This document shows positions 19,369 through 52,570 of a stretch of DNA of 64,000 nt, in pieces. The notes beneath the pieces are model-generated. The model did not search any database, was not told the DNA's origin, and saw only the letters and a program-made list of their open reading frames with translations. Both the position numbers and the translations under genes were made by a program. Source of the DNA: Trichoplax adhaerens (Eukaryota; Animalia; Placozoa); assembly GCF_000150275.1 (NCBI RefSeq), contig NW_002060958.1, positions 464,374 to 528,373 of the forward strand. Reading direction: 5' to 3'. Position 1 is the first letter of the stretch. Every line of letters begins with the position of its first letter.

Positions 19369-20223
19369 GCTATAGCTCTAAAGACATTCGTCATGGCTAC
19401 CGAATTGGGTATTTACAACTGGATTCACTTCAAACTATATCAAGGTACAACCTATGTAATGTAATCCGACTAATTTTAAGTTGGATTTTAGCCTATTGGT
19501 CAGAATCGATCAGAACATTCAAGAGCTGCTGTAGTTAATATCACGATGGGTTGAAATAGTTATACCGCCTAACAGTTATCGGAAAGTCTATTTAGTCATC
19601 CTAGGATGATATTTATTAAAGCTTAATAGTCGAATTTTGAACCTTCGACTTCATTCATGCACTCGTATTCAATTTGTCAAGACTGACAGCAAAATTTTAC
19701 CCATGAAATTATGAAATAACCAGAAATTAGCATATTATGCGCATCAAGATAGCCGTATAAACATCATATCAAAGCCAACCTTCGATAATATAGATATATA
19801 TGCTGTTTAAATAAAGTTTGCTATAATTGTTTACTAGTGCGATAAACTCTAAAGTTTATCTATTTTTCGATATTTAAAACATGAATATCATTCAATTCGT
19901 GCCTAAAATTTTAAAATAATCAAAAAATTGATATATTTTTAAAGGCGAATTGCTATGTTTTGGTCCTTATTATATCGCTCTTCGATCATATCGCTTGTCA
20001 AGATGAGGTATAATGGCTAAAATTAATATCACCTTGTCATTACTTTGAACTTAGAAAATGGCCAATGGAGCAAATTCACATTTAAGGCTTGTTACTCTAC
20101 AACATAATAATCCAAAAGTATACGATCTCATTCAAACACAGAAGTTATCTATTACGAACAGAACATGGTTATTTATTTATTGTTGGGGAGACATTGCACT
20201 ATAATTGCGTGATTTAAAGCTTA

Positions 20224-20500
20224 TGGATTCTATTTTTTTAAATTCCAGTAGCTTACATCTTGACATTTCTTGGAGATTGATAGCACTGATATTTCATGAA
20301 ATTAAAACATCAAGGAGCTTAATCCAAAATTAAGAAGGCATTTAGTTTGTTAGTATTCGTATTATCGTTTTCGGATTCCGTTCTTTTAATTCGAGTAGCT
20401 TGTATGCTCTAGCATTTCAAAAACTTGAAAGAGTTTAATCCAAAATCATGTACGCATTTGATTTGTAGGCTTTCATATTGTCGTTTACAATCATATTTCC
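20224..20500. repeat. Decayed local duplication, 2-3 copies
   Basis: GATTC...TTTTAAATTC(C/G)AGTAGCTT...CATTTC...GAG(C/T)TTAATCCAAAAT...GCATTT..TTTGT recurs at about 20226 and 20374. Confidence 0.5.
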
Positions 20501-23500
20501 TTTTTATTTCATCGCCATCCAATTTTAAATTTAAAAGATTTATTCTTTAATCATGGTGCAGTGATAATATACCCAAATTTTTGAAGACTTACGATTCTGA
20601 TGCTTCATAAAATTTGCGGAGCTAATAACGGTTAATTAAATAAACCTGCAGTTACTGTTTCTACGCTGTTATTTTATACTGTAATATACTGCGATTCCAT
20701 GTTACCGTTTGGAACTGAAGACCAGCTATTTCATGAAAAGCATTCATGCATACATAATTTTCAGGTATAAAATACCGATATAGTAAAGCAAAATTGAATC
20801 TGTCATCTTGTTTATGGCCAGACGGACTTATTGCATCTTATTACACATTTCATGTATTCAATCTCGGATAACAATTCATGCAATTTATTTCTTGTATTAA
20901 ACCTTACTCGTTTCTTACGGTAGACTTATCATATCGATTCTTACAATATGTTAAGGATCAACCTCCTGTATCTAAAGCTTATTTTAATCATGGCAAACAA
21001 TTTTCTAAAATATATGGTAGTAGCGATCAATTACTTTAGTAGAGAAATCAATCTTTATGACTCAAAATTAATATTTCAATATAGAATAGAAGGTGTATAC
21101 CATGTAATAGCTTCAAAACTTTTTCATTAAATACAATACATAAACAAGATTTTATTTACAAACAAACTTAAATGGCTAAAGGTAAGCTTTCTAAAGCAAA
21201 TTATATGTTGTTGTCATTTTTTATATGAGAGGCTGACATTGGCTAAGATTAAAATCATCAATTACTAGACTTCTTCGCTTCCAATGTGAATTTTGTATAA
21301 GGTATCAATGGATAAACGTTTCCTATTATTTCGAAATACTAATTAATCGAAAGTCCTAGGTTAAATTGTTTATATTTTATTGAATAGCTCATCTCAATTT
21401 ATTGCCTTCTCGAATAAATAAGATGATGCATACAATGTGACTACTATAATAAATACTATAACAGCTTGACTTTTTAGAATGTTTTTGTCTAGGAAAGCTT
21501 TTGTATAACGGTAGTTTACAAATGAAATACTTGACGTGATTTAATTTGATCCTCAATCAGTAAAATTTGTCAATCAATAATTTTTGTTTTGAATGTCATG
21601 TCATATAGCTATGGCGTATTTACAAAGCATGTAAAATCATTTGATCTATAATCTATTTTGTATTTTTCCACTATGCACGTATATCGTAGTTTCTTAGCTA
21701 TACAAGCCAATTTTTACTTCTTTTAATTCATGCATTTCTTAGCTATTTCATAGAAAGCGATTAATACATCTTTCATCATCAAAAATATATGCGTGATATA
21801 TTGAGCCGCTTTAATCATACTTATTATTGTATCAATCTTTCATCGCTTTCCACTTAGTATTTATAATAAGATTTTGAAAACGACATTGATAATCTACTCT
21901 TTATTTTAACAATAATATGCTTAAGCATTCGAGTTATGTCGATTTTCATCATTTTGGTGTCTTACAAAGGTTGGATTGAATATCAGATTTTCAAATACGA
22001 CGACCATCTGAAATTTCGTACTGACCCAAATAAGAAAAACTATTCTTTAAATGAACGCTTTGTATAGTAAATTCGAATAAATTTTTAAGCATGCTATTAT
22101 TTGTTCCAGATTTGCACTGGGATCTAAGTTGATGTCAAATCATTACTGCTAGCCCTTCTGAGATCATACTGAGTAAGGAATTTAATGTCGTAAAGAGCTT
22201 ACATTGACGTATACTTACCTAGACAGATTTTAGTAACAAAATCATAAATGATGTTTACTTATGATGAGGTTTAACGCAGTAATTTAAATTACTTGAGAGA
22301 GGGTAGTAACTTATTAAGTTATTTAAAAATAGTAGTAGGGCAATTAATACTGCAAGTAAACAGAATCCTGGCGGACAGAATAATTGAAATCAGCTACGCT
22401 AATATTTCGTGAACAGTTGACTAGATTCTCTAACTATCCTATGATACAAAAATAGAAGCTTAGAGTATATAAATTCTAATCCAAGAAAATTCATAGGAAA
22501 GATTTAATACGCGATAGGTAAATTATCGCCATTATTAGAATTTTTTGTCTGGATGAACAGAAACTGATGTCACTGCATGTCCTTTAATATCTTGCTAAGA
22601 TTACAATCATCGACCGATCGGGATCATATGTACTTAAAATACTTCACGCTCAAAAATGGTGTCAGATTTTACCAGATATTCGATATTCCACACGCCACTT
22701 TGTTTAGATTACCCAAATTTAAAAAAAATTAGTGTCAAAATCACCAATCACAATGCTTCCTTAAATTTCGATGACAACGATTATGGAAAATTAAAGCTTT
22801 TCTTATTTACTCGGTCTACTATGCTATACTTGAAAAATTGTAAGGTATCTTTATTGATAAAAAAATTTCGTTTAAGTATTTTTATTTACTTCAAATCTTG
22901 CGGAAATAAATTATATCATATAGGCTTTGAACATGCAATGATTTTGACATTAAACGTGCGTTTTGAAAACATGGTTGAGAGCTTAGTAATAGTGCGTAGT
23001 ACAGCCGTGTAATGTAGAATAGATAGTTAAAGCTTTTAAAGTAATTACACATTAGCGCTCGAAGTTATTCATGACCTGAAATAATTTCTCTTAATTTTCT
23101 AAATGGGTCATGACATAATTAGTTTTAATCTTACTTTAAATGAGGCTAACATTATTTTCGGTCAGTTATCAAAACAATGACTCGCATGTTGGCATATTTC
23201 ATGATGGAAATCAGAAATTATTAATTAAATCGCTATTAGAGATTCACCTCTTCTTTATAAGCTTGATAATTTGGCAGCATACCTTCGGATATTTAATACA
23301 AACTATAAAAGAATAGCTTATTCTTTAAACTTCATTTTAGGTTGGCAACAAGAAATCATCCGTGGTTTTCAAATGTATGAAGTGCAATTCAATTTTACTA
23401 AAATGTAGTTTCCAAAGCTATGCAGTTGTAAAAGACACTAAAGCTCTTTACACTTATATGCTTTCTCTATTTTCATTATTAAAAAGAGCGAAAGTTCGTC

Positions 23501-26500
23501 GTTATTCATTAGTAACTATAGTTACGAAACAGGAGATCATGCTTGAATATCGTGTCGCAGTTATGCTGATTATTAGATAACTGATTAAGCGGAAATAGCG
23601 TTTCCATCAAACTTCCTCAGGAAAACATCTGCGTCTCACAAATAAATATATAATATAGAATTAATTAGATACCAGCAGATTTAATCAGAATTTAGCGTTA
23701 TCATTACCAAGGGCATGAGAGACAATTATGCACAGGCGTGTTATTAATTCTTAACTTACATCGTACAGTATGTTAGTTTGCATATCATAACTAATCATTA
23801 CTACTATAAACTCCGAACCTTAGACTTGATAGTAAAAGGTGTGGTAGAATTAGGCTGCTGGGAAAAGAAACTCTAAAAAAATTACTAGTTTAATTATGTG
23901 GCCTAATAATGACGAGTACCTTGCAATATATGGGCTATACTGTTGGTACAGAATCTGTTACTTACTTTCTGTTCAACAACTTATTAGTTTAAATTAACCA
24001 GCGATGCATAGCAATAGCAAATGTCCTAAAATTTTAAACTATCTTGAATATTTTACCGTAATAATAATAGTATAAATTGATCTAATTAGAAAAGAAACAT
24101 CCTATTTGCTTATCTAAATAAAAGGATGTAGCAATATCTTCAGGATGATAACAAGTATATAGCGTGTTCAAATTAATTACTAGTGGTTATGCCTTTTCAA
24201 CTATTACTATCCTATGATTTAGAATATTATATTTTAATTAATTTCTATGCTACTACCGAAACACTATTATCAAGAAATGACAATTCTTTTATTTATTTGA
24301 ATTGCAAATATCTATAGCTCACTACACAATACCATAACTCAATTTAATTTCAACCGTTGCGTTAATAGAATTATTAAACAATGTAATTTTAACTAATTAT
24401 GGTATTTTATTCACATGAACTATAATGGAAGCTGTATCTGCATTAATTTAATCGTAATTAGTTATGAGCGTAACATTTAATAATATTCAAGGTATCCACT
24501 GTCCAATTTACCGTAGATCAGAAAAAGTTAGATTCGGTATTCGTAGATAATAACGGCTGTTACTTCAGATATAAAAGACTTTTAAAATATTTATTTTACT
24601 TTTGGTTAGTAATTTATCAGGTGGTCTATCCTGTTATTTATTTGTTCACATTCGTGACTTGACTGTAGTAATGTAGAAAGACTAAATGTCATACTGGAAG
24701 GTTGGCAGAGAGAAAGTACAATTCAGATTGCAGTATAATTATTCTTATATACGATGATACCGTATATCGTCGATATCTTTTAGGACTGAACGTAATTTAG
24801 TGCTAGGGATTCGCCAATGCAGGTATCCGTATAAAGGGAGAAATTCGGTCTCATTTCCTTAGAAAGTACATGAAGAACGGTAATGCTGGTACGTTAAGAT
24901 AACCGTAACTGCCGTAAATTCGATTTAAATTGCTTTACTTTATTAATTACATTAAAGTATACTGATAAGTGGATATAAATTGCTTTTTCTTAGATTGTAT
25001 GCCATTTCGAAATTTTATGTATTTTTCTGACACGATTAAATTGAATATCTTCTAACTAATTCTGTACTTGTAGTTTTTTGACTGTTATAGTTAGTTATAA
25101 AATTAATCGATACATATATGCAAAAAGTACTGACTAACTTAAATCCTGTAACACTTACTGCATGAATAGTATCGAATCGCGTACCTATATCAACATGTTT
25201 TTGTAATTTATGGCATGCGAGTATTTGTCGTATTTGTAGCAGTTGTATCGGTTATGCCCGATCGGCTTGCTGTATTTTGATGAGTGACTGGAATAACTTG
25301 GATTTTTCATCTTTCAAATTGCTAAACTTACTTGCGGCCAAGAAGTGGCATATATAGAAAAATTAGTATCTAGTATATTTTTCGTAAATTAACCTTACAG
25401 ATATAAAAAACCTTCTATTACGCATTAAAATTTTTGCATATTATCTACCGTGATTATAGATAGAGCTTTTTTTCGTAATATTATTAAAAGTAGTTTTAAT
25501 TAGTGTTGGCATAGCTGATGCTTATATATGACATCAAATCGAGCAAAATTCATTCTCTATACTTTAACTACAGCAAGAGAAAGTGCACCATGATTGTAAC
25601 ATCCTGATGATCAGCTTTTAATAAGTATTTAAGTTTTACGGTAGACCTTACGCAAGTATGACGTGGGCATAATTTTGAAAACAATTATAACACAATCCAT
25701 TTGCTTAACTGATCTGCCGTTTCATTATAAACGTAAAATAAGTGCCAAAGGGCACTTTTATACCCTTTAATGGTATTTGAGATATTGTAAATGTCAATCT
25801 TAAATATAGAGATGTAAAATTATCTCTATGGTCATAAATTATCACAATATTAGAGGGTAGGACGCTAAGTTGTGGCTACTAGGAAACAACCACATGGCGT
25901 TGCTGGAGGTCTCCCAATCTTTACTGTATGGGTAAATTACCGTACAGAATAATCTTCTCTTTTTGGATACTGTGTATATCTATGTTGTAACTTTAACGAA
26001 AATGTAGTTACATGCCCAATCGATGATTTAACAGTGTTTTACAATTTAGATATACTACTGCATATCTTACAATAATTTAATACCACAATTACTAGCGATT
26101 TTCACATGATCCATAGTAGTCAGTACTCTTACACATACTCTTTTGTCTAATCTATTGATTTATTCTGAAACTATAAAGCGAAAATATTGCTAATATGGAA
26201 TAGCGATAACCAAACTATGGGTAACAATATATAGAAACCAGAGATTTTATAAATGTACTAAGACTAAGAATAGTCTCCTAATTAAAATCATTTACTAAAG
26301 TTATATTATGTTCACATTGGAGACGCTATTGGTTTTAACAGTAAACTGTTAGCTACCAGCTATATAATATGCCCATTTGCTAACTTAAATACCTTTACCT
26401 TTACATTTATTAATAAAACTATAATACGATCAAGTTGGTTTAAACCAGGTAGCTAACAGAAATCGAAATTAGGAAATGAAACTTTCGGTACTGATAAATT

Positions 26501-27991
26501 AAGCTTATTGAGAAAGCTCTGGATTAGGTCTATACGATTCAAATTGATTTTATCGGCCGTGAAAGTGAAAAAGTATCTCATCTACTACAACCTTTAATTA
26601 GAAAAATTACCTGAAAATGTAAATAATTTTACATGTTATAAATCATACGAATTATATGTGTTTACTTTCAAAAGATTAATGATTAAATGATACATATCTC
26701 TTAATAAATTGAATTTATTACGATACGTAATTGATTTAAGAAAAATAGCTTCGTGCAGTTTAGACTCCATCTGATTTATTAATTATTTCTATCTTTAATA
26801 GTTACTATCGTAGAATCTAATTTACTGCTTTTTCCTTCAAATCTACCGGGCGTATTACCGTTCATTAATAAGAGATATAATTGCTTCGGTGACGTAATAG
26901 TAATTAATGATATTGATAATAATAATAAATAGGAAAAATTTTTTATGCATTTATTTATTGCAAAATATGTAATATCGAACGGTAAATATGCATGAAAAAT
27001 TTTTCTCACTAATGAGACAATGATGTATTATCTATAAAATCTAAAATTGCAGCTCTTTAAAATTTCATTTAAGAATTGGCTACAATCGACAATAAAAACT
27101 TGTGTAACAGAAAAAAGTAAATGATGCTGCCTAGTTACCCTTTCACGCAATAAAGCTTGTTTAAATATTAGTAAAATGATATGTAGCTGATATACTAGAG
27201 ATCATTGCTACGCTAATACTTCGTGATATATGGCTTATAAACTAGAGGTCATTGCTATACTACTAATTTGACTAAAATACCTTAATAATATCATTATCGT
27301 ACCAGATTGGGCCATAACAAAATATGTAAAGTTTGAGGATATACCGGTAGGGAGTAATCCTAAATTGAATCTATATTCGTATAAACGTTCATTTACGAGA
27401 CAATTGACGTGTTAGAGCGATAAGAAATATAGAACTTAATGCAATCGCATCGAACAATATCTGTAAATCGAAATATTTTTAGATCATAAGTCTATTTTTT
27501 TACCCAGGCTAATGTCAAATTTGGGTACATTTTAGCAATTATGTTCATATCACAGTTTCAATACTTTCGTTATATGTAAATACGGTACTAATATAGCATT
27601 AAACGTAATAAGTTCGACAAGGTTTCGTCATATTCATATCGTAGCTATTGCGATGAAATCGATTTAATTCTAATGACGTGCATCATATATTGCCATTCAA
27701 CATAATGCAATTCTTAGGCACCTTGATCGAGTATCGAAGGTTTGTTAGGGTGCGGTAATAATTTTTAGTCCACAATTTGTTAAGCTCTTAAAAACCTATT
27801 TAGAACCAGTTTGTAATAAAAAGAGTTAACCTGTGTCAACTAATTTATTTCTAGAAGATTGGTTCTAAACTAAATTGCTTCCAGCTATCGAAATTGATAA
27901 TAGCCTAAAAGCCTCTTTTAAGCCGTGTGGATCTTGCCTGATTTGAACGCTTTTTCTAAAATTAATTATTTTCTATTCTTGATTGGCGAAG

Positions 27992-28942
27992 ATGCTTTAT
28001 TTAAAATATAACAGCACTTCCTATAGGATAGAATACATTAGTAAAGAATTTAACATCTTATCCGTTACATTTTCAATTACTGCAATTGTTAGTAATATAA
28101 TAATTATTATTTTACTATTAAGTCGACCCTCTCTAAAAGTTCCAAGCTGGGCAATTACGTGTAGCTCTTGCTTTGCAGGCATTTTACTTGCAATGTCACA
28201 CGTAGCTAGTGGCTCAACAACTATCTTCACTGCTGGTCCCTTACAATCTATTCTAGTAGGATGCATTTTTGATGCAATAATGCATTTAACTGCTGAAGCT
28301 ATCTATAATATCCATATTGCATTTCTTAGCCTAGAGAGATTTTATGCAGTCATTTATCCATTTAAATATCGACGTATAGCATCGAAGGCGAACATTGCCA
28401 AACTTTTACTGGCAGTTTGGATTCTGCCTATTCTTTTTCTTCTGCTTCCAGTTAAGATTGCTGCGTATGTATATTGTAAATGCTGCCTCAATTGGTTTCG
28501 AATTCCAGTGATTAGAACGATTATGCTGTATTGTGCCGTGCCAATTCTCTACTTCCTACCGCCTGTTATTACAGTCTTAGTTTACGCTATTATTTTATGG
28601 CAACTTCATCGGAAAATTAATAGTCATGTATCTCCTGATTGCGCCCACTCTCATAAGCGAAAGATTAAATCTTACATACAAAATAGAAAGGCTATAATTC
28701 AAGCATTTATAATTGTATGTTTTTACGCTTTAACTTTTATTCCGGTTGTAATTTTCGCTTATATTATAACTTCTAAAAATTATTACCGACTGATGATTCC
28801 CTTTTTTACGAGTTCATTGATGATAATTGTATTCTTAAACATACATCCAATATTCATCATTTGTTTTAATGCGTCCTTGAAGGCAGAAGCGAAAACTAAA
28901 TTTCAACATTGGTTTATACCTTGCCAAATCAATACCTCTTAA
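27992..28942 (+). CDS. Rhodopsin-like (class A) GPCR, single coding exon, paralog of 18328-19368
   Basis: First ATG is at 27992 (the ORF track starts at an upstream TTG). It shares CSSC in TM2, LSLERFYAVIYPFKYRR, YFLPP, TFIP and IHPIF with the upstream GPCR. Confidence 0.92.
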   Translation: MLYLKYNSTSYRIEYISKEFNILSVTFSITAIVSNIIIIILLLSRPSLKVPSWAITCSSCFAGILLAMSHVASGSTTIFTAGPLQSILVGCIFDAIMHLTAEAIYNIHIAFLSLERFYAVIYPFKYRRIASKANIAKLLLAVWILPILFLLLPVKIAAYVYCKCCLNWFRIPVIRTIMLYCAVPILYFLPPVITVLVYAIILWQLHRKINSHVSPDCAHSHKRKIKSYIQNRKAIIQAFIIVCFYALTFIPVVIFAYIITSKNYYRLMIPFFTSSLMIIVFLNIHPIFIICFNASLKAEAKTKFQHWFIPCQINTS

Positions 28943-31914
28943 GCTACTGGTTGCTAATTTGCTTTTATGACTTTCTTTACAGAGCACATTATTGCCTAAC
29001 AAACAGTTGAGCCCTATCGTAGTAAATATAAATTCCCTAAATGATATCGGAATAGCGTATCGTCTTTATTTACAACAATTGTATTTTATCATATTACTAT
29101 AAAAAATATCGCGATCAGAGATATGTAACCTTATAAAATGGAGCTAATACTGTATAAAATGATTAATAAAGATAACACGACATCTAAAATTTCAGAATAG
29201 GATGGCTTTTACCTTAAATATATACAATATTGATGGTAAAAGAAGTAGTATAGGAACTGATGACAATCTTTGTTGAAATCAAACCAGCGAACAAACAGGA
29301 TGTTAAGGTTATGAACTTTTAGTAGATAATGCGTATTTAAATTTCGTAGTCACTAGCTAAATAGCAAGTTTATTGCTATCATTGTATAAATTGGTGTATA
29401 TTACTGGTCAGCCATTAGCTTCACGACGAATTATTTGTAGATTATTCTTACTGCAAGTAAAATGCTATACCGGCAAGAAAACATCAAATCTGAACAGAAG
29501 AATATAAAGATACAAAAGCAGCGATATTCAGTATACAAAAATATTTTTAATTCTTATTAGTTGCCTAATATTATATCTAATTATAGATTACAAACAGTTC
29601 AAAATTTCACTTTTAGAATCCATGTGTTCTCAAAGTGATCCTTTATTCCACCGTAGCATATTGTATAATAATAAATATATTGCATACCTCATACAAGGTT
29701 CATAACTATGCGATCTATATTATAATATACAGCTGTTATCAATTTTTGACAGCGTAAATTTTGTAATATTCAGTATTATTGTGAAATCCAATACAGGTTA
29801 AATAGCAAGATCACAAACTGAAATTACTGACGTAGCTATGGCTAGAGTACTTTCATCCGAAATACTTACAGTACAGTACGTACACTTTGCATGAGCCCTA
29901 CCTGCTACCACACACTTTGTATGCAAGCATTTACCAATTCCAAATCAGTCCAAGTAGCCTTTTAACCCGCTGCTTTACTGGCAGTGTGCTTGTATTTTTG
30001 CATATGCGTACAAAAACAATCCATCGATTGATCATCACATCCTCGTTTTATACGCATATTTCGAATTGAAGATTCCTTTTTAGTTAGTTAGTCGGTTAGA
30101 TAGTCAACTAGTTTTTCAATTGATATTTAATTGTAAAGACTATAATCTTGGGTGCCGAGATTTCTTCAGTATTAAATGATAGTAAATCTCTGACTTTCTC
30201 GTCTACACTATCTGTGACGCTATAATTATACCATAGTATTCGGTCGTTGGAACTGAATTATTTGGTGATATAGCTAATCTCGCCTCTTAAGTTAGTAAGT
30301 GGCGTTCTCCGCAAGGATTGGCGTGTGTAGACTAATTTGTCACTAGTGGTGTGCGACACGAATACACGATGGTGGTCATGACAGTAACACTAGCTTTGGC
30401 AGGTCAGTCCCCTGATGCAAGCATGATTCATTTACTCTGTTCTATTAGTAAACAGAATGGCTAGTTTTTTTATTCACGCGTTGATGAAACATAACGCCAT
30501 ATGTAAGTGTTTCGGATGAAAGTACTCTACTAGTAGTCATAGGATTGATTTGGGATGCAGTAGTGTAGAGTTACTGTTCCAAATTTTCCATGAAAGTATT
30601 GTGCTGTACAGTACAGTACAATGGATGGGTACAATTAAATGACTTGCTATACAGTAGAATTGAGGTGGGATTAGTGCTTGCATAAAAGGCAAACAAGTTC
30701 CAGATCATACTACTGTTATATATATATATATTGTAGTTTTAAATTACAAAATACCATGAAGCAACCGAACCTTTCTCAGGTCTAGTCTTATCAAATTCTG
30801 GATACCTGTCAAAGCATAGCCAATGACTTGATGTACTTTGCTGCATACCAGCTTTGTTGCTAACAATGTATTATTAAATAAATATAAAAGCCCACAGTTG
30901 TATCAAGATAAATCGATACCAATTACATCAATATCATTGTCATCCGAATAGATTAGCAAATATACTAGTGCTACAGCTGTAAGACTTATTCTCCGATGAC
31001 GTTAAATCCATTCTCAAAGAGAGACAATTACAATTATACTGTAAGTTACACTGAGGAATGATTCAGTCGTGAGTGGGCTGCCAGATAGGGAGTTTAAATT
31101 TTTCGATCTTATATACGAGCAGTACAAAAGGCAACCATCTTGTGGTAAGTCTATGCTTCTTAATATATACGCAAGAAAAGTAGTAACTATCCCCATGCCA
31201 TCTTTGTGTAACTTGCAAATCAGTGTCCCAGAAAGGACAAAGCTAGCAGATCACATCACTAGGAAAGATGACAGTGAGCTACTGTTGATTGCTACCTAGT
31301 TAGAATTTGCTTACAAAGTTTACTGACCTCGAATACGTCAATATAAACTATTATCGAGAGTCTATAAACAAGGATCACAGTTACAGTAGCATCATACACT
31401 TGTTTATGCAGCAACTAAAATTCAGATACTGCATGACATGACGCAGATCAAGCGCAATTCATCACAGCTGTTCCAATCGGTTATGTCTACCGTAGAAAAT
31501 CAGCACGCTTACATCATTAAGGAATGTTTAATCTAGAAATTTAATCAAGATATTGATAACTTAACTTAATAATCACCATCAGCGTCTTAACAATGCACTC
31601 TATCAATGAGACAAGCTAAATAATAGAAATAGTATACAGTAGAGTACAAATGAGTCCAAAAACAGTAAGAAACAAATAAAATTTGCTGTATTTTGATAAC
31701 ATGTTAAGAATTTTGAGTCAGTAGCCCTTCCAGCATTATATTAAAAACTCCTAACATCAAAAATCTTGAAAAAAGACAACACAGTTTGTATGAATAGGTA
31801 ACGTCAAACAGTATTCAACAATAAATGTTGACAACCTTTATGTTATATCATTGGTAATTAATCAGTTATTACACTAGTACAAATACAATAAGAATACCTA
31901 GTTTTTTTTTAAAT

Positions 31915-34075
31915 TTAGATAGTGGCTAAATAATCTTTTACTTCGGATGGTGATAGTCGATTAAAGCCACTAGAATTAACCACTCCAATTTCAATGTTGT
32001 CTTCTGTCATTTGACCATCGAAACTTTCCTATCCAATAAAATATCAATTCGGTAGACAAAGTTAAAATTTTCTGCAAATACGCGTATATCTTTTTCATCC
32101 TCTATCGCGACATACCTTTAACGTTAAAATGGCCGTGTGGATAGCATCTTCTAGTTCCATTTCTTCGTTATACCTTGAAGTAGAAACATAAGTCATAGAA
32201 CGTTTTAATGAATACTCTAAGACGTGTCTATCGGCGATGCAAGAAAGTCTAGTGACGATTATCCTACCGTTTCTCTAAGAATGTTTTACCATTAACATGA
32301 TTTTTTCCAAGAGCTGTAGCTTTCCAAGCAAAGAATGCACCCTAAATAAAGGTTGATAAATCTTTCATGCACAAATTTCGATTTGAATTATACTTTGTAA
32401 GAACAAGTATCGAAACGTACCGATGGATCGCACTGATAAAGATATGGCCCTTCATCACCAGTTCCAGCCATTAAAAGAGATACACCAAAAGGCCTTACAC
32501 CACTAAATAAATACATGTAATTTCGTAAGCCTACACGATTGGTAATATCATTTTAACGTAAGCCTAAACTCTTAATATTGTAAGATTTAGTATCAAACCC
32601 GGATTGAGTATATTCTTGCATGACTGATGCAACTTTTTCTACCAATTGTGACGTTGGAATAGAATCTTGGTACTTCATTTGATATTCCTGGGCCAATTTA
32701 CGAGCTTTACGTAACAGAACCCTAATATGTAATATCATTGCAAGAACAGAAGGATATTTACGTTGGTATGGCTTACAAAATACAACCGGTTTGAGTCAAT
32801 GCTACGAAATGAACTATTCAAGATCGATTCTACAGTATACGCCAAATTGCATCGCAATAGTAGCGGGAATCTACTACTAACAACTACTGGAAGCATCACT
32901 GTAGCAGTTGTTTCGTTAAATGGATGCTTCCGTTGTGATGAAATGATGTAAATCGTGTTGCCTGGATAAAGAGCTAATGTAAGACAGTAAAGCCTTATCC
33001 ACAGGTTGCGAACTGCATTTTACGTACCTATAATCGGGTCCCATTCCACTGTACACCATACCAATTTTATCAGTTATTCTAGCGACCTAAGTGTATATAT
33101 CAAAAATGGACAACAATCTTTTATTTCAACCATGAGTACAGACGAATTAGTAAAACTATGGCTATACTCCTCTCTCATTAGAATTTCTGGTAATAATAGC
33201 AAAGTCGTACGTAACAATCCCTTTTCAACATGTACAATATCAATCCCGTCATTGAAATTGAATACATTACCTTATGAGTACTATTTTCATCGTATAGTTG
33301 AGATTTATATTTTTTTTCCGTGGCTAAAACGGCACCATTGGCAACTATTCAGGCATATTGTATTTAATATATCAGTCATTGTAATATGGCGTTGAATGTT
33401 CAATCAAATGCTGTGCACCTTTATGTAGGTAACAGCTTATCGACATTATGAAAGAGTTTGGAAGGAAGGGATTTATCCAAAGAGAATACATTACTTATTT
33501 ATCTTACCTTTAATACCAATGGAGGGACTGCCGGCAGCAACTGCTGCTAAAGCATATTCAATTTGTACAAGTTTACCGGATGGACTATAATAAAATAATC
33601 ATTGAAAGCAAGATTGAATTATTTTTCGATCCTATTCCTTATCTAGTCGCATACGCATTTTGTCGATACGATCCTATTCACATCGAATCCAATCTACTTC
33701 ATGAACGATAAAGCTTTAATACATTCAAGTGGACTCATAAAAAGTCCGTAGAGGTCTTAGAGGATATTTACTATGATCAACTGACGGCTCGAATGACTGT
33801 TGTGCTCCAAACTGCAAGCACCCGGTATGATATAGAAACTTTGTCAAGACACAGTATAACACAAAGAGAATTGGACGAGTCGTTCTACTCGTCTATGTAT
33901 CCATTTGTGCCTTGATAGGCTCAATAAAACTTATTAAAAGCATTTACTAATCATTGTAGAAAAGATGCTTAAGAATTCAATCAAACATTTACTTCTAATT
34001 TACCATGGAAAGTCTATCAAATGGAGTTCAAAATTACCTGAAGGTAGTTAAACTGAAGCTGTAGCGTTCGGACAT
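31915..34075 (-). CDS. PSMA2: Proteasome subunit alpha type-2, multi-exon
   Basis: Exon 1 (34075-34038) reads [13 protein letters not shown]; later exons give [40 protein letters not shown]...[41 protein letters not shown] and [11 protein letters not shown]...VKDYLATI*. Confidence 0.97.
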
Positions 34076-34831
34076 GACGAAGCAAGACGATTGTATGTTC
34101 ACTTTGCCTCAATGCTTCAACGTGAGATCACTTTAATCCACCGTCACTAACGGCTCAGCGGTACTAGTAGTCTACTCCTACTATCGTTCAAGACAGTCGT
34201 GTCGGTATGGCAGCAAGCACTGACCGTGACCAAGAGGGACATGGTGCATGCGCACAAATCCTGGCATTCTTGTTCTATACAGTCACAGTACTTTCTCCTC
34301 GACAGACATACTGTACACTGTACAGTACGTCTAGTGTAAGACAACATTTTATTTTGGAGAAGTCCGTTTGAAACAAAAGTCCGTTAACAGTAGCTAACTA
34401 TAGTGGGTAAAAATTGAAACTCAAGGATTTCTTTCATACCCAACCGATTAAGGTTTAACTAAAAAATGGCTAGGGAATCTTAACGAAAATCAACTAAGAA
34501 ATACGCACTAAGAAAGTTGAACTTTCATGGTACAGTAGTGTACAGTACTGTACTACTAGTACACTGAGTACAGTCCATGCTGAACGCGCATGTGCTCGAA
34601 GTTAAACAGTCTCTTTCTACAGTGTACAGTGGACGGTACTGTAGTCCACTGTACTGTACTGTACCCTTTCGCGACGTGTCGTAACGGTTCGCCAGCGTCT
34701 GAAGTTTTAGTCTGGCTGGACTTGAGCATACTGAGCTGCTCAGACACACCTACTGCACTTTAAAATTGTTTTGCTTGCAGTCGGTTGCAGCCATTCCATA
34801 ATCCACATCGATAATTTCCATCCACTCAATC
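34076..34831. promoter_or_regulatory. Bidirectional promoter region between PSMA2 and HIBADH, containing TACAGTA/TACTGTA-rich tracts
   Basis: Divergent start codons about 0.75 kb apart; higher GC and CpG content; NRF1-like GTGCATGCGCA (about 34244) and CGCGCATGTGC (about 34585); motif tracts at about 34308-34338 and 34529-34665. Confidence 0.7.
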
Positions 34832-37800
34832 ATGGCTTACTTGTTAAGGGAAGTCGGTAGGAATAACAGCAAAGTGACCAGCAGCTGTAGGTTAATCAAG
34901 CGCTGTATATCAGGTAACTTTACCTTCATCCTTAAAATCTTCTATACGAGTAAACTGTTCACTGCAGTCTCATCTCGCCCAAACCTTGTACAAAATTCGG
35001 GCACCTTTCCGATTCTTCATGCAAAATTGACGATGCCTCTTTTAGTGACTACCGTAGCAACTCTCTCAGGGTCTCTAGCAGTCACTGAAGAGCTGGGGGT
35101 TAATGTTTTTATCTGATACTCGAGAGTAAACTGTATTGATCTGATAAACTGCTTATTGTGGCGCTGTTATCAATGCATAGTCTTGAGAGTAGTCATGCTA
35201 TACGCCTATAACGTAGTTCATTAGCATATTGCAAAGGATTATGCTTCTGTAATATAAGTATCCTTGGTATACTGTACATTCGTATTGCTACCAGGTTATC
35301 TTGTATTTCGAGCAAGACGTATACGCGTACGTATGCTGAAGGACTTATCAACGCTTCATTAATTGAATCAAATTGATGCTACCCTGCTCTAAGTAAAAGA
35401 CTACTGTAATCAAATGCAATTGTGTGCTGTTCACTCATTGATTACATACCGTCGATTACAACATACGCTAGCAAATACGTGTATTATTACGGTGTATGGT
35501 ATATCGTTGCTATACTTAATCTGCACTATTCTGATCGTACACATCTTCAAAACTCCATTCAATACCTTACTAACTATTGGCTGACAGCTCAATCTTGTCT
35601 GATCAAATCATGTACAGAGCTCAGTGACAAGTGAGCGATGATGCTAAATGGCTGGAGTTATTTATTAAACATTGTATGATCCACGCACTATTATAGCACA
35701 TACAATGTACATGTTGGTCTCGTTTATGGTATAGACTTATTTTATCATGTTATCTTTTTCTACTAGGATCCAGCATCAAAAACAAGGTAAATTCGTGTCT
35801 GTCTCTGCAAGTTCAAATTCTACCGTCAATACTATCACCAGAAACAAGACATAACTTTACATTTCAGCTACACGAATACATCACCTGTGTCAAATTCATG
35901 TTATTGTAATCGCCTTATGCTAAGTTATTTATTTTTACTATAAAACTAAACGTTAAAGTCACAGTCGGAAACGGTAGTTGTTACAGCAAAATTGTAAACA
36001 AAGCCTAGACAGTGCCTTGAGTAGCTGCGATTGTACGTATTCGAGATCTGAATAGAGAATTAGGCTTCTTTAAAGCAGTGATGTAACAAAAGCTGTATAT
36101 CTACCAACAACGTCTCACGATAGTCAAGCTCTGTACTACAATACTCTACAGTTACAGTTGTATGCTAACGGTAAAATTGAATACAATACTTGAAAATAAT
36201 AGATAATGAATTGCACTTTAGGATATTGGCTTTATCGGCTTGGGCAACATGGGCGCTTCTATGGCGAGAAATTTAATGAAAAATGGCCATAAAGTCATTG
36301 TTAACGATGTAGTACCTGAATCAGTCAGCGCTTTGAAAAATGACGGTGCTGAAGTTGCTCAAACTGCAGCAGAGTTAGCTAGCAGAACATCAACTATTGT
36401 GACAATGTTGCCATCAAATCCTCATGTACGTGAAGTTTATACCGGCAGTAATGGATTGTTTAGGTAAGTTTTGCATTAAATTGAGATGAAGTTCAATAGA
36501 GCATCGCTATTACACTGTCATTCAAGCTCCATGGATGTTAGTACTTTGCAGATCAAATTTTGTGGTATTAGTGACCATGGATATTGATAACTAGTCAATG
36601 CATGCTTTCATTTGTTGGGTGACATGATTACGTCAATCAAGTGTAGCTTCGTTCAGTTAATGTACAGGAGACAGGTAGAATGGCTAGAGTCGGAGAAAAA
36701 TGATTGCATTATGAACTAGCTCTGATTTGGTTAAGAAATTTGTGCTCTACTTTCTTACATAGTACTGCAAGCCAAGATTCCTTATTCATTGATAGTAGTA
36801 CAATCGATCCGGCTGTATCACAAGAAATGGCTGCAATAGCTTCCGAAAAAGGAAGTACTTTTATGGACGCTCCAGTTTCTGGAGGTACAACTGTTTCTTC
36901 ATATATTGAAATACCGTACTTTTATTTTATTACAGTTGGTTCACATCGTTGATAAGTGATTGCAGATATTGTGTCCATCAGTACAATGTCGTCAAAAATT
37001 TATGCTAGGAAAAGTTTAAAAATAGCTTTTTAATTCCCGTAAATAGGAGTTGTAGCGGCTCGCGATGCGTTATTAACATTTATGGTTGGAGGCCCGGAAG
37101 AAAAGTTTGATGAAGTTAAGAGTATATTAGATTGCATGGGGAAAAATATTGTTCACTGTGGCAAAGTTGGAACCGGACAAGCATCAAAAATTTGTAACAA
37201 TATGCTTTTGGCTATTGGCATGATTGGAACATCTGAAACAATGAACTTAGGAATAAGGTAGCTTATAACCACTGCCTAGTTCGTCGTCGAAATTATTGTA
37301 AATTTATTGTTGCATTTTCTGATTGATGTCATAATCACTCTGTGATACCATAATCCTTCGATAGCAGATCTTAGGGATCATTTACCCAATTCAAAGCGAA
37401 CAGATTATTGTTGATATTTCATTAGTTCATAGTAATGCGTTTCTTTCCAGTACACTAGCGAACGTAAATTTTAATATCAAATGGATAACAAATGTTTTTA
37501 CTATCTACAAAAGGCTCGGCCTAGATCCAAAATTGCTGGCAAAAATTCTTAACATGAGCTCAGGTAGATGCTGGTCTAGCGAGGTATATAATCCATGCCC
37601 AGGAGTAATTGAAGGTATTCCATCCAGTAACAATTATGAAGGTGGATTCGGAACTGCTCTAATGACCAAGGTTTGACTTATACTAAAGTATTTCTACTCA
37701 CTCTTTATGGATGTCACTGAAATATTTTAGTAGTTTAGCCAGGCAATTGTTATAAAATAGATTGCAAACTCCAATGTCTAATCTCTTACGGGAATGATTG

Positions 37801-37979
37801 GGTCATTTGATTATGATCTATTGCAGGATCTAGGTTTGGCTCAGAGTGCTGCAAACGCTACGAATTCTCCTACGCCCTTAGGATCTCTTGCCCATCAGCT
37901 GTATCGCGTACTATGTAACAATGGCTATGGGAAGAAAGACTTTTCAGTAGTATTTCAAACTTTAAAAGAAGAAGAATAG
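34832..37979 (+). CDS. HIBADH: 3-hydroxyisobutyrate dehydrogenase, mitochondrial, multi-exon
   Basis: Basic transit-peptide exon 34832-34913, a 20-nt micro-exon 35767-35786, then from 36222 [11 protein letters not shown] (Rossmann fold). Further motifs: [50 protein letters not shown] and DLGLAQ...KDFS. Confidence 0.96.
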
Positions 37980-39654: not shown

Positions 39655-39830
39655 CAGTGTACCCGTCATACTGTACACTGTACAGTACTCTTTTTTACGG
39701 TGGATTCTGTTCTGTTCCTTTTTCAGTACTGTACACTGTACATTGTACGGTACAGTATTTTTTTCGGTTGGTGTACAGTACCTCGTACTCTATTGGGCAG
39801 GGCAGTGTACTGTACACTGTACACTGTGTC
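39655..39830. repeat. Dense TACAGTA/TACTGTA/TACACTGTA tract upstream of the COX14-like gene (putative nested Tc1/mariner footprints)
   Basis: Examples: CATACTGTACACTGTACAGTAC, CAGTACTGTACACTGTACATTGTACGGTACAGTA and GTGTACTGTACACTGTACACTGTG. Confidence 0.6.
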
Positions 39831-39892: not shown

Positions 39893-40578
39893 GCATCAAA
39901 AACATTGCGAGAAACGGAGGGATTTGCAGTTGCACTTTTGTGGTCATCAATCTTTATTGAAGATTGCAAAAGTTCGATGATCAACTGTCTTGAAAGAAGC
40001 GACTATCCCTATGTCAGGTCTATCCCTACCTGACAATGACCGTGTACAGTAGAGTAAGCAGTTTACTCGTCATACTGTGCTCTACATATTGGACATGTAT
40101 TCAAGGCCTTCTGAATTTCTAGGAAAAAGAGACAACAGACTGATCAAAGATATTGCGAAAAACGGGCGGGGGAAAGATTTGCAGTTGCAGTCCTGTTATC
40201 GTCAATCTTTCTTTATTTAGGATTGCAAAGTTCGATGATATTCTGTCTTGGAAGAAGCAACTATCCCTATATCAGGTCTATCAGACAACAGACTGATCAA
40301 AGACATTGCGAAAAAACGGGCGGGGGGAAGGATTTGCAGTTGCAGTCCTGTCATCGTCAATCTTTCTTTATTTAGGATTGCAAAGTTCGATGATATTCTG
40401 TCTTGGAAGAAGCAACTATCCCTATGTCAGGTCTATCAGACAACAGACTGATCAAAGACATTGCGAAAAACGGGCGGGGGGAAGGATTTGCAGTTGCAGT
40501 CCTGTCATCGTCAATCTTTCTTTATTTAGGATTGCAAAAGTTCGATGATAAACTGTCCTGGAAGAAGCAACTATCCCT
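39893..40578. repeat. Tandem repeat: three near-identical 153-155 bp copies plus one diverged upstream copy
   Basis: GACAACAGACTGATCAAAGA(C/T)ATTGCGAAAAACGGGCGGGGG...GAAGAAGCAACTATCCCT starts at 40131, 40284 and 40439; a diverged copy lies at about 39893-40025. Confidence 0.95.
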
Positions 40579-47857: not shown

Positions 47858-50800
47858 ATTAATTCAAAACGTTAAAGCTTCGTGTCACTTTTTAATTTTA
47901 TGGCTATTGAAAGATAAAAGTTTAAATTAGTATCTTTTCAAATCATTGTTTTGTGGTAGGCTATTCAAAATCCGAAAAAGAAATGCCGCTTATATCTGCT
48001 AATGTTAAGTCAATGGTGCAGCAGTACATAGTTTAAAGTATTTCATGTACAGTATGCACGCAATCTGCAATTTCATTATGATTGTACCCTAAACCAAGAT
48101 GTATTGTAGTACTTTTTAGTACATTCTTAATTCTTTCATTTATCGTATACTGTGACGCAAATTGTATTACAGGTATTCGAAGTAAAATTATGATATAGCA
48201 GATACAATGGCATAAAATCCACAAATACCTTAATTATTATATCAGGTTCTTTTAAATTCATGTATTCTTTCTATACTCAAAATGAAAGTAAGTAATGATT
48301 ATTGCCGTTATTGCATTTAATAAGCGTTCTTAAATAATATGTAATATTAGAATTTATGCACCTGTAGTACAGTAGTATTAGTGGGCTATCGATAGATAAG
48401 GTTTGATAATACCTTGATTGACTATGTCAAAGTAAATCAGGGCATATTTACAAGTGCAGAATACTTGGTCATTTTTGTGAGTATCTATACCGCCTGTAAA
48501 TGAAAGTAGACACCTTTGCCGTGAAAAATCTTTATGGTGATAACGGCGAGACTTACAATAATGAGAGATTGACATCTTGTACTTAAATTTGTTAAGACAG
48601 CGTATTGTGGTTTGACCATGTTGTGCAATCGATGCTTTTTTGAATTTTCTTTCTTCATTTTTGTCGTCTATTCTGCTTGTTATTTGACTGTATGTCGGCT
48701 TTCTTAAATTTAGAATTGCATATGACCTCTAGTATTTATTTTGTTACCGTTATATGTGCTGAATTTTTCTGGCCAGTTGATATGATAGCCTAGTATACAA
48801 CCAGTACGACAAGAACTACTCTATATCTTATGCCAGTGCTAATTACTGGAACTGACTATCAAACATAACTTTAAAATAATTTGTGCATTATAATTTACAA
48901 TGTGTGCAGTATTATATAACAAATAAAGGAATTTCTTTAAAATAATTGTTTGCCATCTCTTATTACGTATTCTAATTAATGAAGTGTATGAATTTATGAC
49001 ATTATGTATCATTTCTACTGCTTCATGGTTGATTTGTTTTACATTCTCGTACCGAAACCTCATTTTTTCTATTGTTTTGTTTTATTGACAAGTAAGGCGA
49101 TATTCAAATCACTGTTTTTGCAATTTCACAGACTATTAATGGTATCAACGATAATTTAAATAAAAACGGCATAAAATGTGGTAACATTTTGGTGATTCCT
49201 GCTGTCCAACACTAGTATCAGTAAGTTGATGGCCGATTGATTTTCTGGTTAAATCTTGTGGGTCATTCTACTATAATCATTAACTGTGAATAGATAAAAA
49301 TTGCAGTAAATGTTGATTAGATTTTAAATTAAAAATGCTTTAACGATCAGGTAATAACATGCATGTTATCATGATCAATTTCAAATATACCTGATGCTGA
49401 AATTGCAAATATTGAAATAGTCAACGCCTTTTTAGATTCGTAGCGATACTCCTAAAAAACAGGACTCGAGATTCATTTTATTTTCGTCTACCTATTGTAA
49501 TCTCATCGCTTGAATTAATCGAGCTATCTTACGAGCGCAAATTAATATCATCTCTTTGCTATAGATAAAAGCACTTGGCAAAAGCCATGTTACTAAAGTC
49601 AATTTGTAATTGACTAAAGTTTAATTATTGCGAATAATATTTTACGCCAATTAATTGCTAGGGTAGTGAACACTGAGCTGACTGATTACTGCAATAAGCG
49701 AAGATTTCACATTCGTAATAGTTGACTTATCGTGAGCAAACTTTGTCCATTTAATGTTAACATTAATTAACGATCTCAAAATTAAAACTTTGGCGTACAA
49801 CGTTGTACTATTACAATCATAAGACAAAAAACTCCATTATAGTATCTTGGTACAGTAATATTACATATTAGGTACAGTCTAAATATTAAAGCTGTACAGC
49901 ACTGTCTTCGAGTAGCCAGTCTTTAACCTACGGGCTTTTATTGTATCTCCTCGATTTATATGAATCTATTTTTTCAATATTTTATTTTCTTTCTTTCTGT
50001 TAATACGTAATCTAAACTTATCTAACTACCCATTAATTTACACATTTTATTTACAAATTTTATAACTTTTAGATAAAAGCATTATAATTTATTTAAACTT
50101 AGTCTAATTCGCTTGCATATCATCGAAAACTAGAAAGCGTCATTAATGCCAGTAGGAATATTTACAAAAGTATATAGAAATCTAAACTTGCCAATCCACA
50201 GGATTGCTGAATTTCATGTCTTATGCTGATGTCGTAACGTGGCTCGAATTTAGCCAATTGCATTGCATTTTAGATAGCAATTGCAATAGGAAGCGATACT
50301 AATGTGCCGGTTTAGATTGTATGCCAACTCGTATGAAGTAAATTTAATCCAATTGAAATCAAGTGAAATTACGTATCTGCCGTTGAAAGTCTGCAACTGA
50401 ATTCATTTATAATTTACAGTAGCAGTATTCTACAATTTGACAGCTACAGGAACTTTATGGAAAGTTAAGTGGACGCCCATAAATATACTTATATTATTAG
50501 TCGGCGTTGAATGATAAAAGTTCACAATGATTGAAAAGGAAATACTGATTTTAATTCGTGGAGAGATTCCATTTTTCATTTCTAATATTACTTCTGAATA
50601 CTAATTGTAAACACTATCCTGCTTTAAGCCAATTACCAGTTTATACTTGGGAACGCGACCTACAGTAGTAATGGCGACTTCCCCATTACATATCCTTAAA
50701 ATTACAGTAAGTAATTGTATTTCATTGCTGAGATGACTATTGGCATCGTCATACGGTCTTCACAAATTTTAACCGGCTTCATTATTAATAATCGTTAGTA

Positions 50801-51999: not shown

Positions 52000-52570
52000 C
52001 CTAGTTTATTTTGGAAACAATTTATTTCATTGACCGCGTTTCCTTAACTATCTATCTCGCGCAGGATAGAGGCCCTGTATCTAAAGTAATTATGCACAAG
52101 TGTAATTTTATGATGACAAGAATTGCTTGCCAATTTTTGCAACCTAGTTTATTTTGGAAAGAATTTATTTTATTGACGGTTTGCTGAACTATCTATCTCG
52201 CGCAGGATAGAGACCCTGTATCTAAAGTGATTAAGCACAAGTGTAATTTTATGATGACAAGAATTGCTTGCCAATTTTTGCAACCTAGTTTATTTTGGAA
52301 AGAATTTATTTTATTGACGGTTTGCTGAACTATCTATCTCGCGCAGGATAGAGACCCTGTATCTAAAGTGATTAAGCACAAGTGTAATTTTGTGATGACA
52401 AGAACTGCTTGCCAATTTTTGCAACCTACAGTAGTTTATTTTGGAAAGAATTTATTTCATTGACGGTTTGCTGAACTATCTATCTCGCGCAGGATAGAGG
52501 CCCTGTATCTAAAGTGATTATGCACAAATGCAATTTTGTGATGACAACCATTGCTTGCCAATTTTTGTAA
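52000..52570. repeat. Tandem repeat, 4 copies of about 141 bp
   Basis: CCTAGTTTATTTTGGAAAGAATTTATT...CTATCTATCTCGCGCAGGATAGAG...GCTTGCCAATTTTTGCAA starts at 52000, 52143, 52284 and 52425. Confidence 0.97.
52427..52433. mobile_element. Tc1/mariner-type excision footprint (TA-CAG-TA)
   Basis: Copies 1-3 of the 141-bp repeat read CCTAGTTT; copy 4 reads CCTACAGTAGTTT, i.e. a duplicated TA plus CAG. Confidence 0.75.

What the first reader, a model, noticed from the sequence alone, without database searches (positions are those of the whole stretch)
34281..34665. Promoter built from nested TACAGTA/TACTGTA words: a possible transposon-footprint graveyard marking open chromatin
The PSMA2/HIBADH bidirectional promoter contains non-periodic chains such as TACTGTACACTGTACAGTAC, GTACAGTAGTGTACAGTACTGTACTACTAGTACACTGAGTACAGT and CACTGTACTGTACTGTAC. 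Each footprint creates a new TA target, so repeated insertion and excision at an accessible site would give this nested pattern. TACACTGTA matches retention of a Tc1-like CACTG end. Selection against retained insertions in housekeeping promoters would leave only scars. If general, these scars would record germline-accessible chromatin and might be co-opted as regulatory motifs.
Basis: inference. Interest (0 to 1): 0.75.

Follow-up and report, generated by a model that had tools for sequence, protein, structure and literature searches.

The report
Trichoplax ACAGT repeats, scar-like origin
These are the five-letter ACAGT repeats published in 2010 as crowding the DNA in front of genes in the tiny animal Trichoplax; one clean TA-to-TACAGTA insertion elsewhere in the window suggests the units likely begin as jumping-gene excision scars, but the promoter chains carry extra letters such scars do not write, and no source element was found here.

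Summary
The words are real: TACWGTA occurs 76 times against 12.9 expected, 8 times in the finding (0 of 5000 random placements reach 8), in two clusters 230-590 bp from the PSMA2 start and 170-520 bp from the HIBADH start. The footprint origin was not found in print and has one clean data point: one copy of a 141-bp array has TA-CAG-TA where sister copies have TA, with no local template. Promoter alleles differ by in-register 5-nt units, which footprints and slippage both predict. Against a pure footprint graveyard: 19 of 24 outer flanks of promoter chains are G (background 20%; 23 of 120 elsewhere), the AT-rich spacer has 18 TA and no scar, and no CAG-ended element or transposase was found. 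Best reading: footprint-like seeding, then slippage and inverted copying, then likely retention at housekeeping promoters. The link to open chromatin is untested.

The parts
34037..34075 (-). PSMA2 first coding exon, ATG at 34075
   Evidence: translation [12 protein letters not shown]; Pfam Proteasome on exons at 32391-32795
34307..34328 (.). Cluster 1: 22-mer with two TACWGTA words around the 7-nt unit; 8-bp stem, 3-nt loop; identical copy at 39667-39688
   Evidence: family D14; fold of 34281-34345 not beyond shuffles, z -0.5
34331..34529 (.). AT-rich spacer (33% GC) with 18 TA dinucleotides and no TACNGTA
34530..34574 (.). Cluster 2a: GTAC-W-GTAC chain, TACWGTA at 34531, 34541, 34546; polymorphic (5 nt missing at 34540, centre A/T change at 34534, a +10 allele)
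34618..34664 (.). Cluster 2b: 7-nt and 5-nt units, TACWGTA at 34637, 34652, 34657; perfect 11-bp inverted repeat 34624-34634 / 34644-34654; a 5-nt unit added behind 34635 in one allele
   Evidence: (z -4.2, 0 of 200 shuffles as stable)
34648..34664 (.). 17-bp perfect (ACTGT)n run that fits row 4415 of Wang et al. 2010 additional file 5 (17 bp, 581 bp from a gene start; midpoint 34656 minus 581 = PSMA2 ATG 34075)
   Evidence: arithmetic
34832..34913 (+). HIBADH first coding exon, ATG at 34832
   Evidence: Pfam NAD_binding_2 / NAD_binding_11 on exons 36222-37976
39667..39827 (.). Sister cluster 85-245 bp upstream of a COX14-like ORF (ATG 39582, - strand), same vocabulary and same 22-mer
   Evidence: (COX14 E 5e-5, 23.3 bits, below the 25-bit cutoff)
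52427..52433 (.). TA-CAG-TA in copy 4 of a 141-bp tandem array (52000-52606); sister copies carry plain TA (52145, 52286, and 52002 at the array edge)
   Evidence: (spacing 141, 141, 146)
29845..30527 (.). MITE-like element: 26-nt terminal inverted repeats (25 of 26 alike) flanked by TA on both sides; ends read GAG, not CAG
   Evidence: (I6)

Best explanation
The clusters are the published Trichoplax ACAGT promoter repeats, whose units are likely first written as precise five-base insertions at TA (the scar predicted for a Tc1/mariner-type element with CAG ends), then likely multiplied and rearranged in place by slippage and inverted copying, and likely kept at housekeeping promoters as sites for an unidentified protein. 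Step 1 (seeding): shown once as a sequence change (52427); the transposase as its cause is inferred. Step 2 (in-place growth): shown as 5-nt and +10 length differences between alleles; the mechanism of each is inferred. Step 3 (retention or use): inferred from position and from published genome-wide association; untested.
For: Seeding: TA to TA-CAG-TA in one array copy, joined flanks 26 of 26 identical to two empty sisters, no adjacent template, the only gap of 3 nt or more in that array's alignments; copy 1, which shares three variants with copy 4, is also empty, so insertion is the simpler polarity; random letters would read CWGTA about 0.2% of the time. TACAGTA/TACTGTA are the two canonical SB footprints and rank first of 32 TA-NNN-TA classes. 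Dispersed copies: 54 vs 11.0 expected after masking clusters, long ORFs and arrays, flanks not different from background TA at 5 of 5 positions (lowest p 0.052 and 0.071), one-mismatch neighbours raised at all 7 positions. A TA-flanked TIR element exists in the window. Growth: both indels seen in the common second allele are in-register 5-nt units, one an exact tandem copy, one not; perfect 11-bp inverted repeat. Retention: 10.6 and 12.8 sites per kb at two housekeeping promoter regions vs 0.43 per kb in the left 28 kb and 0 in 600 bp upstream of both GPCR genes; 54% of ACAGT runs within 1 kb upstream of genes genome-wide; word count 6 vs 6 between alleles, and neither substitution that hits a TAC-N-GT word lies off its centre; a Hi-C model picks out repeating ACAGT in T. 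adhaerens.
Against: Only one clean seeding event: 1 of 72 chains has a true empty sister (two more at 5 mismatches are motif-rich noise), and it lies outside the promoter. No TA|CAG...CTG|TA pair with real TIRs among 1349 tested (best 18 of 28); no transposase family in 285 ORF scans (short ORFs of 1-28,900 were not scanned). Wang et al. count 11 mariner/Tc1 fragments and no functional element in the genome. The non-canonical SB footprints are mostly not enriched (TACATA/TATGTA 0.86x, TATA 0.87x, TACTA/TAGTA 1.29x, TACGTA 1.26x). The cluster is not more conserved than its flanks (10 substitutions in 193 bp vs 32 in 2435; flank figure understated because contigs collapse variants), which gives no sign of purifying selection. 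The same 20-mer sits in 65 independent groups among 98 metagenome loci, so the vocabulary is not placozoan-specific and may come from a more general process.
Confidence: 0.45

Rival explanations
1. The words are binding sites (TAC-N-GTA or GTAC-W-GTAC dyads) for a general promoter or architectural factor, born by point mutation and multiplied by ordinary slippage, with no transposon involved.
For: Proposed by Wang et al.. The centre is the most tolerant position: TACSGTA 18 vs 5.3, 3.8x after masking, and allele changes at 34534 and 34628 hit centres. G/C outer flanks in promoters. Precedent: Seidl et al. weighed footprint against homodimeric factor for TACATGTA in Phytophthora promoters and chose the factor. 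In 8 of the 25 metagenome loci inspected a long ORF begins on the near side within about 60-550 bp of the 20-mer, 6 with a Pfam family on that ORF or frame (my reading of the coordinates).
Against: Neither point mutation nor slippage gives the untemplated insertion at 52427. 44 isolated copies lie away from clusters with background flanks. No excess conservation. Adjacent units mix both orientations (1 of 4 two-unit chains here; 23 of 58 adjacent pairs in metagenome loci).
Confidence: 0.2
2. A host repair or template-switching process, not a transposase, inserts short self-complementary GTAC-based words and builds palindromes; the match to Tc1 footprints is coincidence.
For: Perfect inverted repeats with non-footprint letters; in metagenome loci the palindrome extends 4 or more bases beyond the 19-nt hairpin in 7 of 65 groups (about 0.5 expected by my estimate); same 20-mer in hosts of 28-58% GC; no source element.
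Against: The 52427 insertion has no template in its flanks and duplicates TA exactly; one TA-NNN-TA class dominates, as a fixed transposon end would give.
Confidence: 0.15
3. One reading: the clusters are only nested excision scars piled up where germline chromatin is open, a neutral record of accessibility.
For: Word identity, the 52427 event, TA-anchored 5-nt allele differences and a TACAGTA/TACTGTA switch at one site, which two excisions could give, high allelic divergence, promoter location.
Against: 19 of 24 outer flanks are G (p 6e-10), 16 of 22 with the 7-nt unit allowed; 18 unused TA targets between the clusters; no retained element or half element with CAG ends; non-footprint letters inside the chains and inverted repeat.
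Confidence: 0.12
4. The clusters are worn terminal inverted repeats of the Mutator family that Kim et al. 2025 report at placozoan promoter hubs.
For: Kim et al. find a motif at loop anchors of housekeeping (GP1) promoters that also lies in Mutator TIRs; PSMA2 and HIBADH are housekeeping-type; a 22-mer and a ~30-nt stretch recur between clusters.
Against: Chimaera assigns ACGG, not ACAGT, to that transposable element; TACSGTA is absent from the finding; the many other contigs that match share only the motif chains and run on unlike (220-257 of 276-326 laid only in part), not a common TIR; no long inverted pair brackets the promoter. The motif letters are in figures I could not see.
Confidence: 0.08

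Closest known systems
(ACAGT)n microsatellite of Trichoplax adhaerens (Wang et al. 2010, Biol Direct 5:18, PMC2871265; abstract, passages and rows of additional files 2 and 5 seen)
   Same: Same pentamer, same position upstream of genes (54% within 1 kb); two table rows fit runs in this window (30606-30620 and 34648-34664) by length, spacing and distance to the gene starts.
   Different: Wang et al. treat it as a simple repeat and possible factor site. In the passages read they do not mention TA-anchored heptamers, mixed orientation, 7-nt units, palindromes or a footprint origin.
Canonical excision footprints of Sleeping Beauty / Tc1-like elements, TACAGTA and TACTGTA (bioRxiv 10.1101/659086; passages seen)
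   Same: Identical heptamers; one TA-to-TACAGTA change seen between array copies.
   Different: No source element or transposase found; SB's non-canonical footprints mostly not enriched; TACACTGTA (5 vs 0.76 expected, all 5 in promoter clusters) is not among that paper's eight footprints; promoter chains have fixed G/C flanks.
Placozoan promoter-hub (GP1) loop-anchor motif in Mutator TIRs (Kim et al. 2025, PMC12221973; section 8, passages and supplement 1 part 1 seen; figures and two image PDFs not seen)
   Same: Housekeeping promoters, motif at promoters, transposon link, and the same two alternatives (domestication or targeted insertion).
   Different: Mutator, not Tc1/mariner; per Chimaera that motif is ACGG-type; motif identity with this cluster not testable here.
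Repeating ACAGT motif from the Chimaera Hi-C model (PMC12817080; section 61 and passages seen)
   Same: Repeating ACAGT in T. adhaerens influences predicted chromatin folding.
   Different: A model-derived association; no origin or binder given.
TACATGTA motif-1 of Phytophthora promoters (Seidl et al. 2012, PMC3520976; passages seen)
   Same: Abundant TA-bounded palindrome in promoters, with the same footprint-versus-factor question.
   Different: Different word and lineage; those authors rejected the footprint idea by argument.

Membership tests
Trichoplax (ACAGT)n promoter microsatellite (Wang 2010) | Perfect ACAGT/ACTGT run longer than 12 bp | tested here: met
   34648-34664, 17 bp; fits row 4415 of additional file 5
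Trichoplax (ACAGT)n promoter microsatellite (Wang 2010) | Within 1 kb upstream of a gene | tested here: met
   581 bp to PSMA2 ATG and about 170 bp to HIBADH ATG
Trichoplax (ACAGT)n promoter microsatellite (Wang 2010) | Placozoan genome | tested here: met
   best named protein hit T. adhaerens, 50% identity, next 23-24%; two table rows 4,042 bp apart match window runs 4,042 bp apart
Tc1/mariner excision footprint | TA-C(A/T)G-TA word | tested here: met
   76 vs 12.9; word as
Tc1/mariner excision footprint | Empty sister site with a single TA and no local template | tested here: met
   52427 vs 52145 and 52286; 1 of 72 chains; outside the promoter
Tc1/mariner excision footprint | Same, within the promoter clusters | tested here: inconclusive
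   5 nt missing at 34540 is not an exact tandem copy but polarity is unknown; 5 nt added at 34635 is an exact tandem copy
Tc1/mariner excision footprint | Flanks are ordinary TA target context | tested here: not met
   promoter chains 19 of 24 G vs 19.7% background; met for the other chains, 23 of 120
Tc1/mariner excision footprint | Source element with CAG...CTG ends and TA duplication, or its transposase | tested here: not met
   window only: 0 of 1349 pairs; no transposase in 285 ORF scans; no whole genome held
Tc1/mariner excision footprint | Filled, empty and scarred alleles of one site | not testable with these tools
   only contigs of five runs could be laid, on 3 kb
Placozoan GP1 loop-anchor / Mutator TIR motif (Kim 2025) | Motif match | not testable with these tools
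   letters only in figures and image PDFs; Chimaera names ACGG
Placozoan GP1 loop-anchor / Mutator TIR motif (Kim 2025) | Paired TIRs around the promoter | tested here: not met
   none among the 25 longest of 236 inverted pairs shown
Placozoan GP1 loop-anchor / Mutator TIR motif (Kim 2025) | ATAC and H3K4me3 peak with a chromatin loop | not testable with these tools
   no such data on hand
Transcription-factor binding site cluster | Positional conservation with change by tolerated substitution | tested here: inconclusive
   count 6 vs 6 and centre-only hits in words, but unit indels and 10 substitutions in 193 bp; no other species available
Transcription-factor binding site cluster | A protein binds and expression depends on the sites | not testable with these tools
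   needs DAP-seq, footprinting or reporter assays

The most novel reading that the evidence does not exclude
Placozoans built a genome-wide promoter and loop-anchor code out of transposon scars: a TA-targeting Tc1/mariner-type enzyme, now lost or domesticated yet recent enough to leave differences between repeat copies and alleles, wrote on the order of 100,000 TACWGTA words (about 1 excess per kb here, scaled to 104 Mb), and a host factor came to read their stacked form; the same route would explain the identical chains in unrelated microbial eukaryotes.
Probability: 0.2. Interest if true: 0.85.

Novelty: new variant of a known kind. Interest (0 to 1): 0.45.

Why it matters
Why ACAGT is the dominant simple repeat of Trichoplax and sits before genes has been open since 2010, and recent chromatin work ties placozoan housekeeping promoters to transposon-linked motifs. 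If the units start as excision scars, a genome described as having almost no transposons holds a very large record of past cut-and-paste activity, and a regulatory vocabulary could arise from scars rather than from retained elements. This is testable now with existing placozoan genomes and ATAC data. The feature itself is not new.

Tried and rejected
No whole genome was held, so no genome-wide counts were made. A +10 allele in two runs (87 + 163 - 30 = 220 vs 210 nt) first looked like an exact 10-nt tandem copy; enumeration gave 97 fitting alleles and did not include that one under my constraints, so its letters stay unresolved and it is used only as a length change. A third allele has 17 gap letters (10 out, 7 in by arithmetic), of which only 5 were displayed. 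None of the 98 metagenome loci aligned to the window, so no other placozoan ortholog was obtained. Pfam scans of 129 and 142 short ORFs found only PSMA2, HIBADH and COX14-like exons; the 111 ORFs listed for 1-4000, 13500-18300 and 19300-28000 were not sent, so clusters at 30598-30656, 50661-50709 and 53458-53515 have no assigned gene. Supplements of Kim et al. gave no motif letters; two image PDFs could not be read and may bear on the Mutator rival. A taxon look-up for a metagenome locus did not complete, so those hosts are called eukaryote-like only from Pfam families, and L010 looks bacterial. Folding of clusters 1 and 2a did not beat shuffles (z -0.5, -1.1), so a conserved hairpin is not claimed; two allele changes break the 2b stem without compensation. 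Searches for a published footprint origin of this repeat found none in the listings (library limited to open PMC and bioRxiv). PMC7325037 passages had no mention of Placozoa.

Full report
Setting. The window is placozoan: a neurexin-like exon finds Trichoplax adhaerens at 50% identity and other animals at 23-24%. The finding lies in the 756 bp between the start codons of PSMA2 (34075, minus strand) and HIBADH (34832, plus strand). No whole genome was available.

Observation. The three quoted chains are present. TACWGTA occurs 76 times against 12.9 in shuffles and is the top 7-mer of the window. Eight sites fall in the finding; 0 of 5000 random placements reach eight in 385 bp, and 32 of 76 sites are clustered against 15.8 expected (3 of 5000). 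The chains are partly periodic. They form two clusters split by a 199-bp AT-rich spacer with 18 TA and no motif. A sister cluster with an identical 22-mer lies upstream of a COX14-like ORF. Density is 10.6 and 12.8 per kb in these two regions, 0.43 per kb in the left 28 kb, and zero in 600 bp upstream of both GPCR genes. Only 1 of 76 sites lies in 9,354 bp of long ORFs.

It is already in print. Wang et al. 2010 report ACAGT as 78% of 7,233 pentanucleotide repeats in T. adhaerens, 54% within 1 kb upstream of a gene, and propose a factor site (abstract and passages). Two adjacent rows of their additional file 5 fit this window: a 15-bp run 5,636 bp from a HIBADH-named gene and a 17-bp run 581 bp from another gene. 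These match window runs 30606-30620 and 34648-34664 in length and spacing, and the second distance lands on the PSMA2 ATG. Chimaera reports repeating ACAGT and ACGG motifs as influencing predicted folding in T. adhaerens and assigns ACGG to the transposon of Kim et al.. Kim et al. link a motif at housekeeping promoter hubs to Mutator TIRs; its letters were not visible to me.

Two classes of word. Outside the two promoter regions, 60 chains have G at 23 of 120 outer flanks, the background for TA (19.7%). Inside, 12 chains have G at 19 of 24 (p 6e-10), or 16 of 22 if the 7-nt unit is allowed. Dispersed words thus look like units dropped at ordinary TA sites: 54 vs 11.0 after masking, flanks not different from background (lowest p 0.052), one-mismatch neighbours raised at all seven positions and most at the centre. 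Promoter words belong to a longer GTAC-W-GTAC grammar; all 5 TACACTGTA/TACAGTGTA words of the window lie there, and cluster 2b holds a perfect 11-bp inverted repeat with letters that no footprint gives.

Evidence for footprint-like seeding. An earlier unchecked note on another placozoan window led me to look for empty sister sites. In the 141-bp array at 52000-52606, spaced 141, 141, 146, copy 4 has TA-CAG-TA at 52427 where copies 2 and 3 have TA with 26 of 26 joined flank letters identical. Copy 1 groups with copy 4 at three variants and is empty at the array edge, so insertion is the simpler reading. There is no adjacent template, so slippage does not explain it. The product is a canonical Sleeping Beauty footprint. 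It is 1 clean case among 72 chains, few of which lie in repeats. A TA-flanked element with 26-nt inverted ends also exists (29845-30527) but ends in GAG; TAGAGTA/TACTCTA is only mildly raised (20 vs 11.7).

Alleles of the promoter. Contigs of five public runs were laid. A common second allele differs in 34473-34665 by 10 substitutions and two 5-nt indels: one unit missing at 34540 (not an exact copy of its neighbour; polarity unknown) and one added at 34635 (an exact tandem copy). The TACWGTA count is 6 in both. Two substitutions hit the centre of TAC-N-GT words (34534, 34628); none hits another position of the six heptamers (about 1.7 expected, not significant, my estimate). Two runs carry a +10 allele and an allele with 17 gap letters whose letters were not resolved. 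The cluster is not more conserved than its flanks (10 of 193 vs 32 of 2435 in one run; the flank figure is understated, and a 117-bp stretch with 8 differences was left out of the second comparison). In each run 220-257 of 276-326 laid contigs fit only in part, on the motif chains, and run on unlike: the vocabulary is genome-wide but not part of a longer shared element.

Evidence against a pure graveyard. G/C flanks, unused TA targets in the spacer, inverted repeats, no CAG-ended element among 1349 candidate pairs, no transposase in 285 ORF scans, a genome reported to have 11 mariner/Tc1 fragments and no functional element, and little enrichment of SB's other footprints. The 7-nt unit does not require CACTG ends: it can be read as CA from one 3-nt overhang plus CTG from the other (inference).

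Beyond placozoans. The exact 20-mer of cluster 1 occurs in 98 metagenome loci, 65 independent groups, 28-58% GC, with unrelated flanks. Of 35 ORFs scanned from them, 13 had a Pfam family, several typical of eukaryotes (Sec2p, PI3/PI4 kinase, adenosine deaminase, PB1), and one locus looks bacterial. Adjacent units are mixed in 23 of 58 pairs, and near-identical loci again differ by 5-nt units. The loci were selected by this word, so they show that the vocabulary is widespread, not how it arises. Seidl et al. met the same question for TACATGTA in Phytophthora and preferred a dimeric factor.

Mechanism. Most likely (0.45): precise 5-nt insertion at TA seeds the word (shown once; transposase inferred); chains then grow and turn over in place by slippage and inverted copying (length changes shown; mechanism inferred); stacked words are kept at housekeeping promoters for an unknown binder (inferred).

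Novelty. The feature and its promoter position are known. A footprint origin did not appear in six searches of the held library (listings only unless stated). Several earlier AI notes of this scan raise the same idea; they are unchecked and not independent support. Interest 0.45: a known but unexplained feature, with a specific origin hypothesis that now has one clean supporting event and a direct test.

Noticed in passing
window 29845-30527: MITE-like element with 26-nt terminal inverted repeats (25 of 26 alike), TA on both sides, ends GAG; a two-unit TACAGTA chain begins where the left repeat ends (29867) and another lies 80 bp past the right end (30607).
   Followed up: partly
window 52000-52606: 141-bp tandem array, 4 copies about 94% alike; copy 4 carries the TA-CAG-TA insertion.
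   Followed up: yes
window 30598-30630 and 53458-53515: Two motif clusters share about 26 of 31 letters including a non-motif tail; the second is a near-palindrome centred on TA-GAG-TA. No gene assigned to either.
   Followed up: partly
window 40130-40578 and 39895-40024: 155-bp tandem array (3 copies, 96% alike) with a G-rich core, plus a worn copy next to the COX14-like promoter cluster.
   Followed up: no
window 2003-2750 and 9689-10116: Older tandem arrays of about 152 and 105-109 bp (about 72% alike), upstream of and inside an NB-ARC gene.
   Followed up: no
window 35338-35454: In the first HIBADH intron, alleles differ at 8 of 117 bases, well above the flanks; the TACTGTA at 35402 shows no listed change.
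   Followed up: no
window-wide: TACCGTA/TACGGTA is the second most enriched TA-NNN-TA class (18 vs 5.3), dispersed, 0 in the finding; it may be a second scar class, centre decay of TACWGTA, or the ACGG motif of Kim et al.
   Followed up: partly
window 55771-58044: 772-aa frame with no Pfam family, Q/N/S-rich with a basic start; 4 TACWGTA words lie in the 600 bp before it.
   Followed up: no
L010:2990-3030, L047, L057, L078: The 20-mer sits at the centre of longer perfect palindromes; L010 has operon-like UbiA and kinase genes downstream and looks bacterial.
   Followed up: partly
L051, L079: Contigs with 14-24 TACWGTA words per kb, far denser than the window.
   Followed up: no
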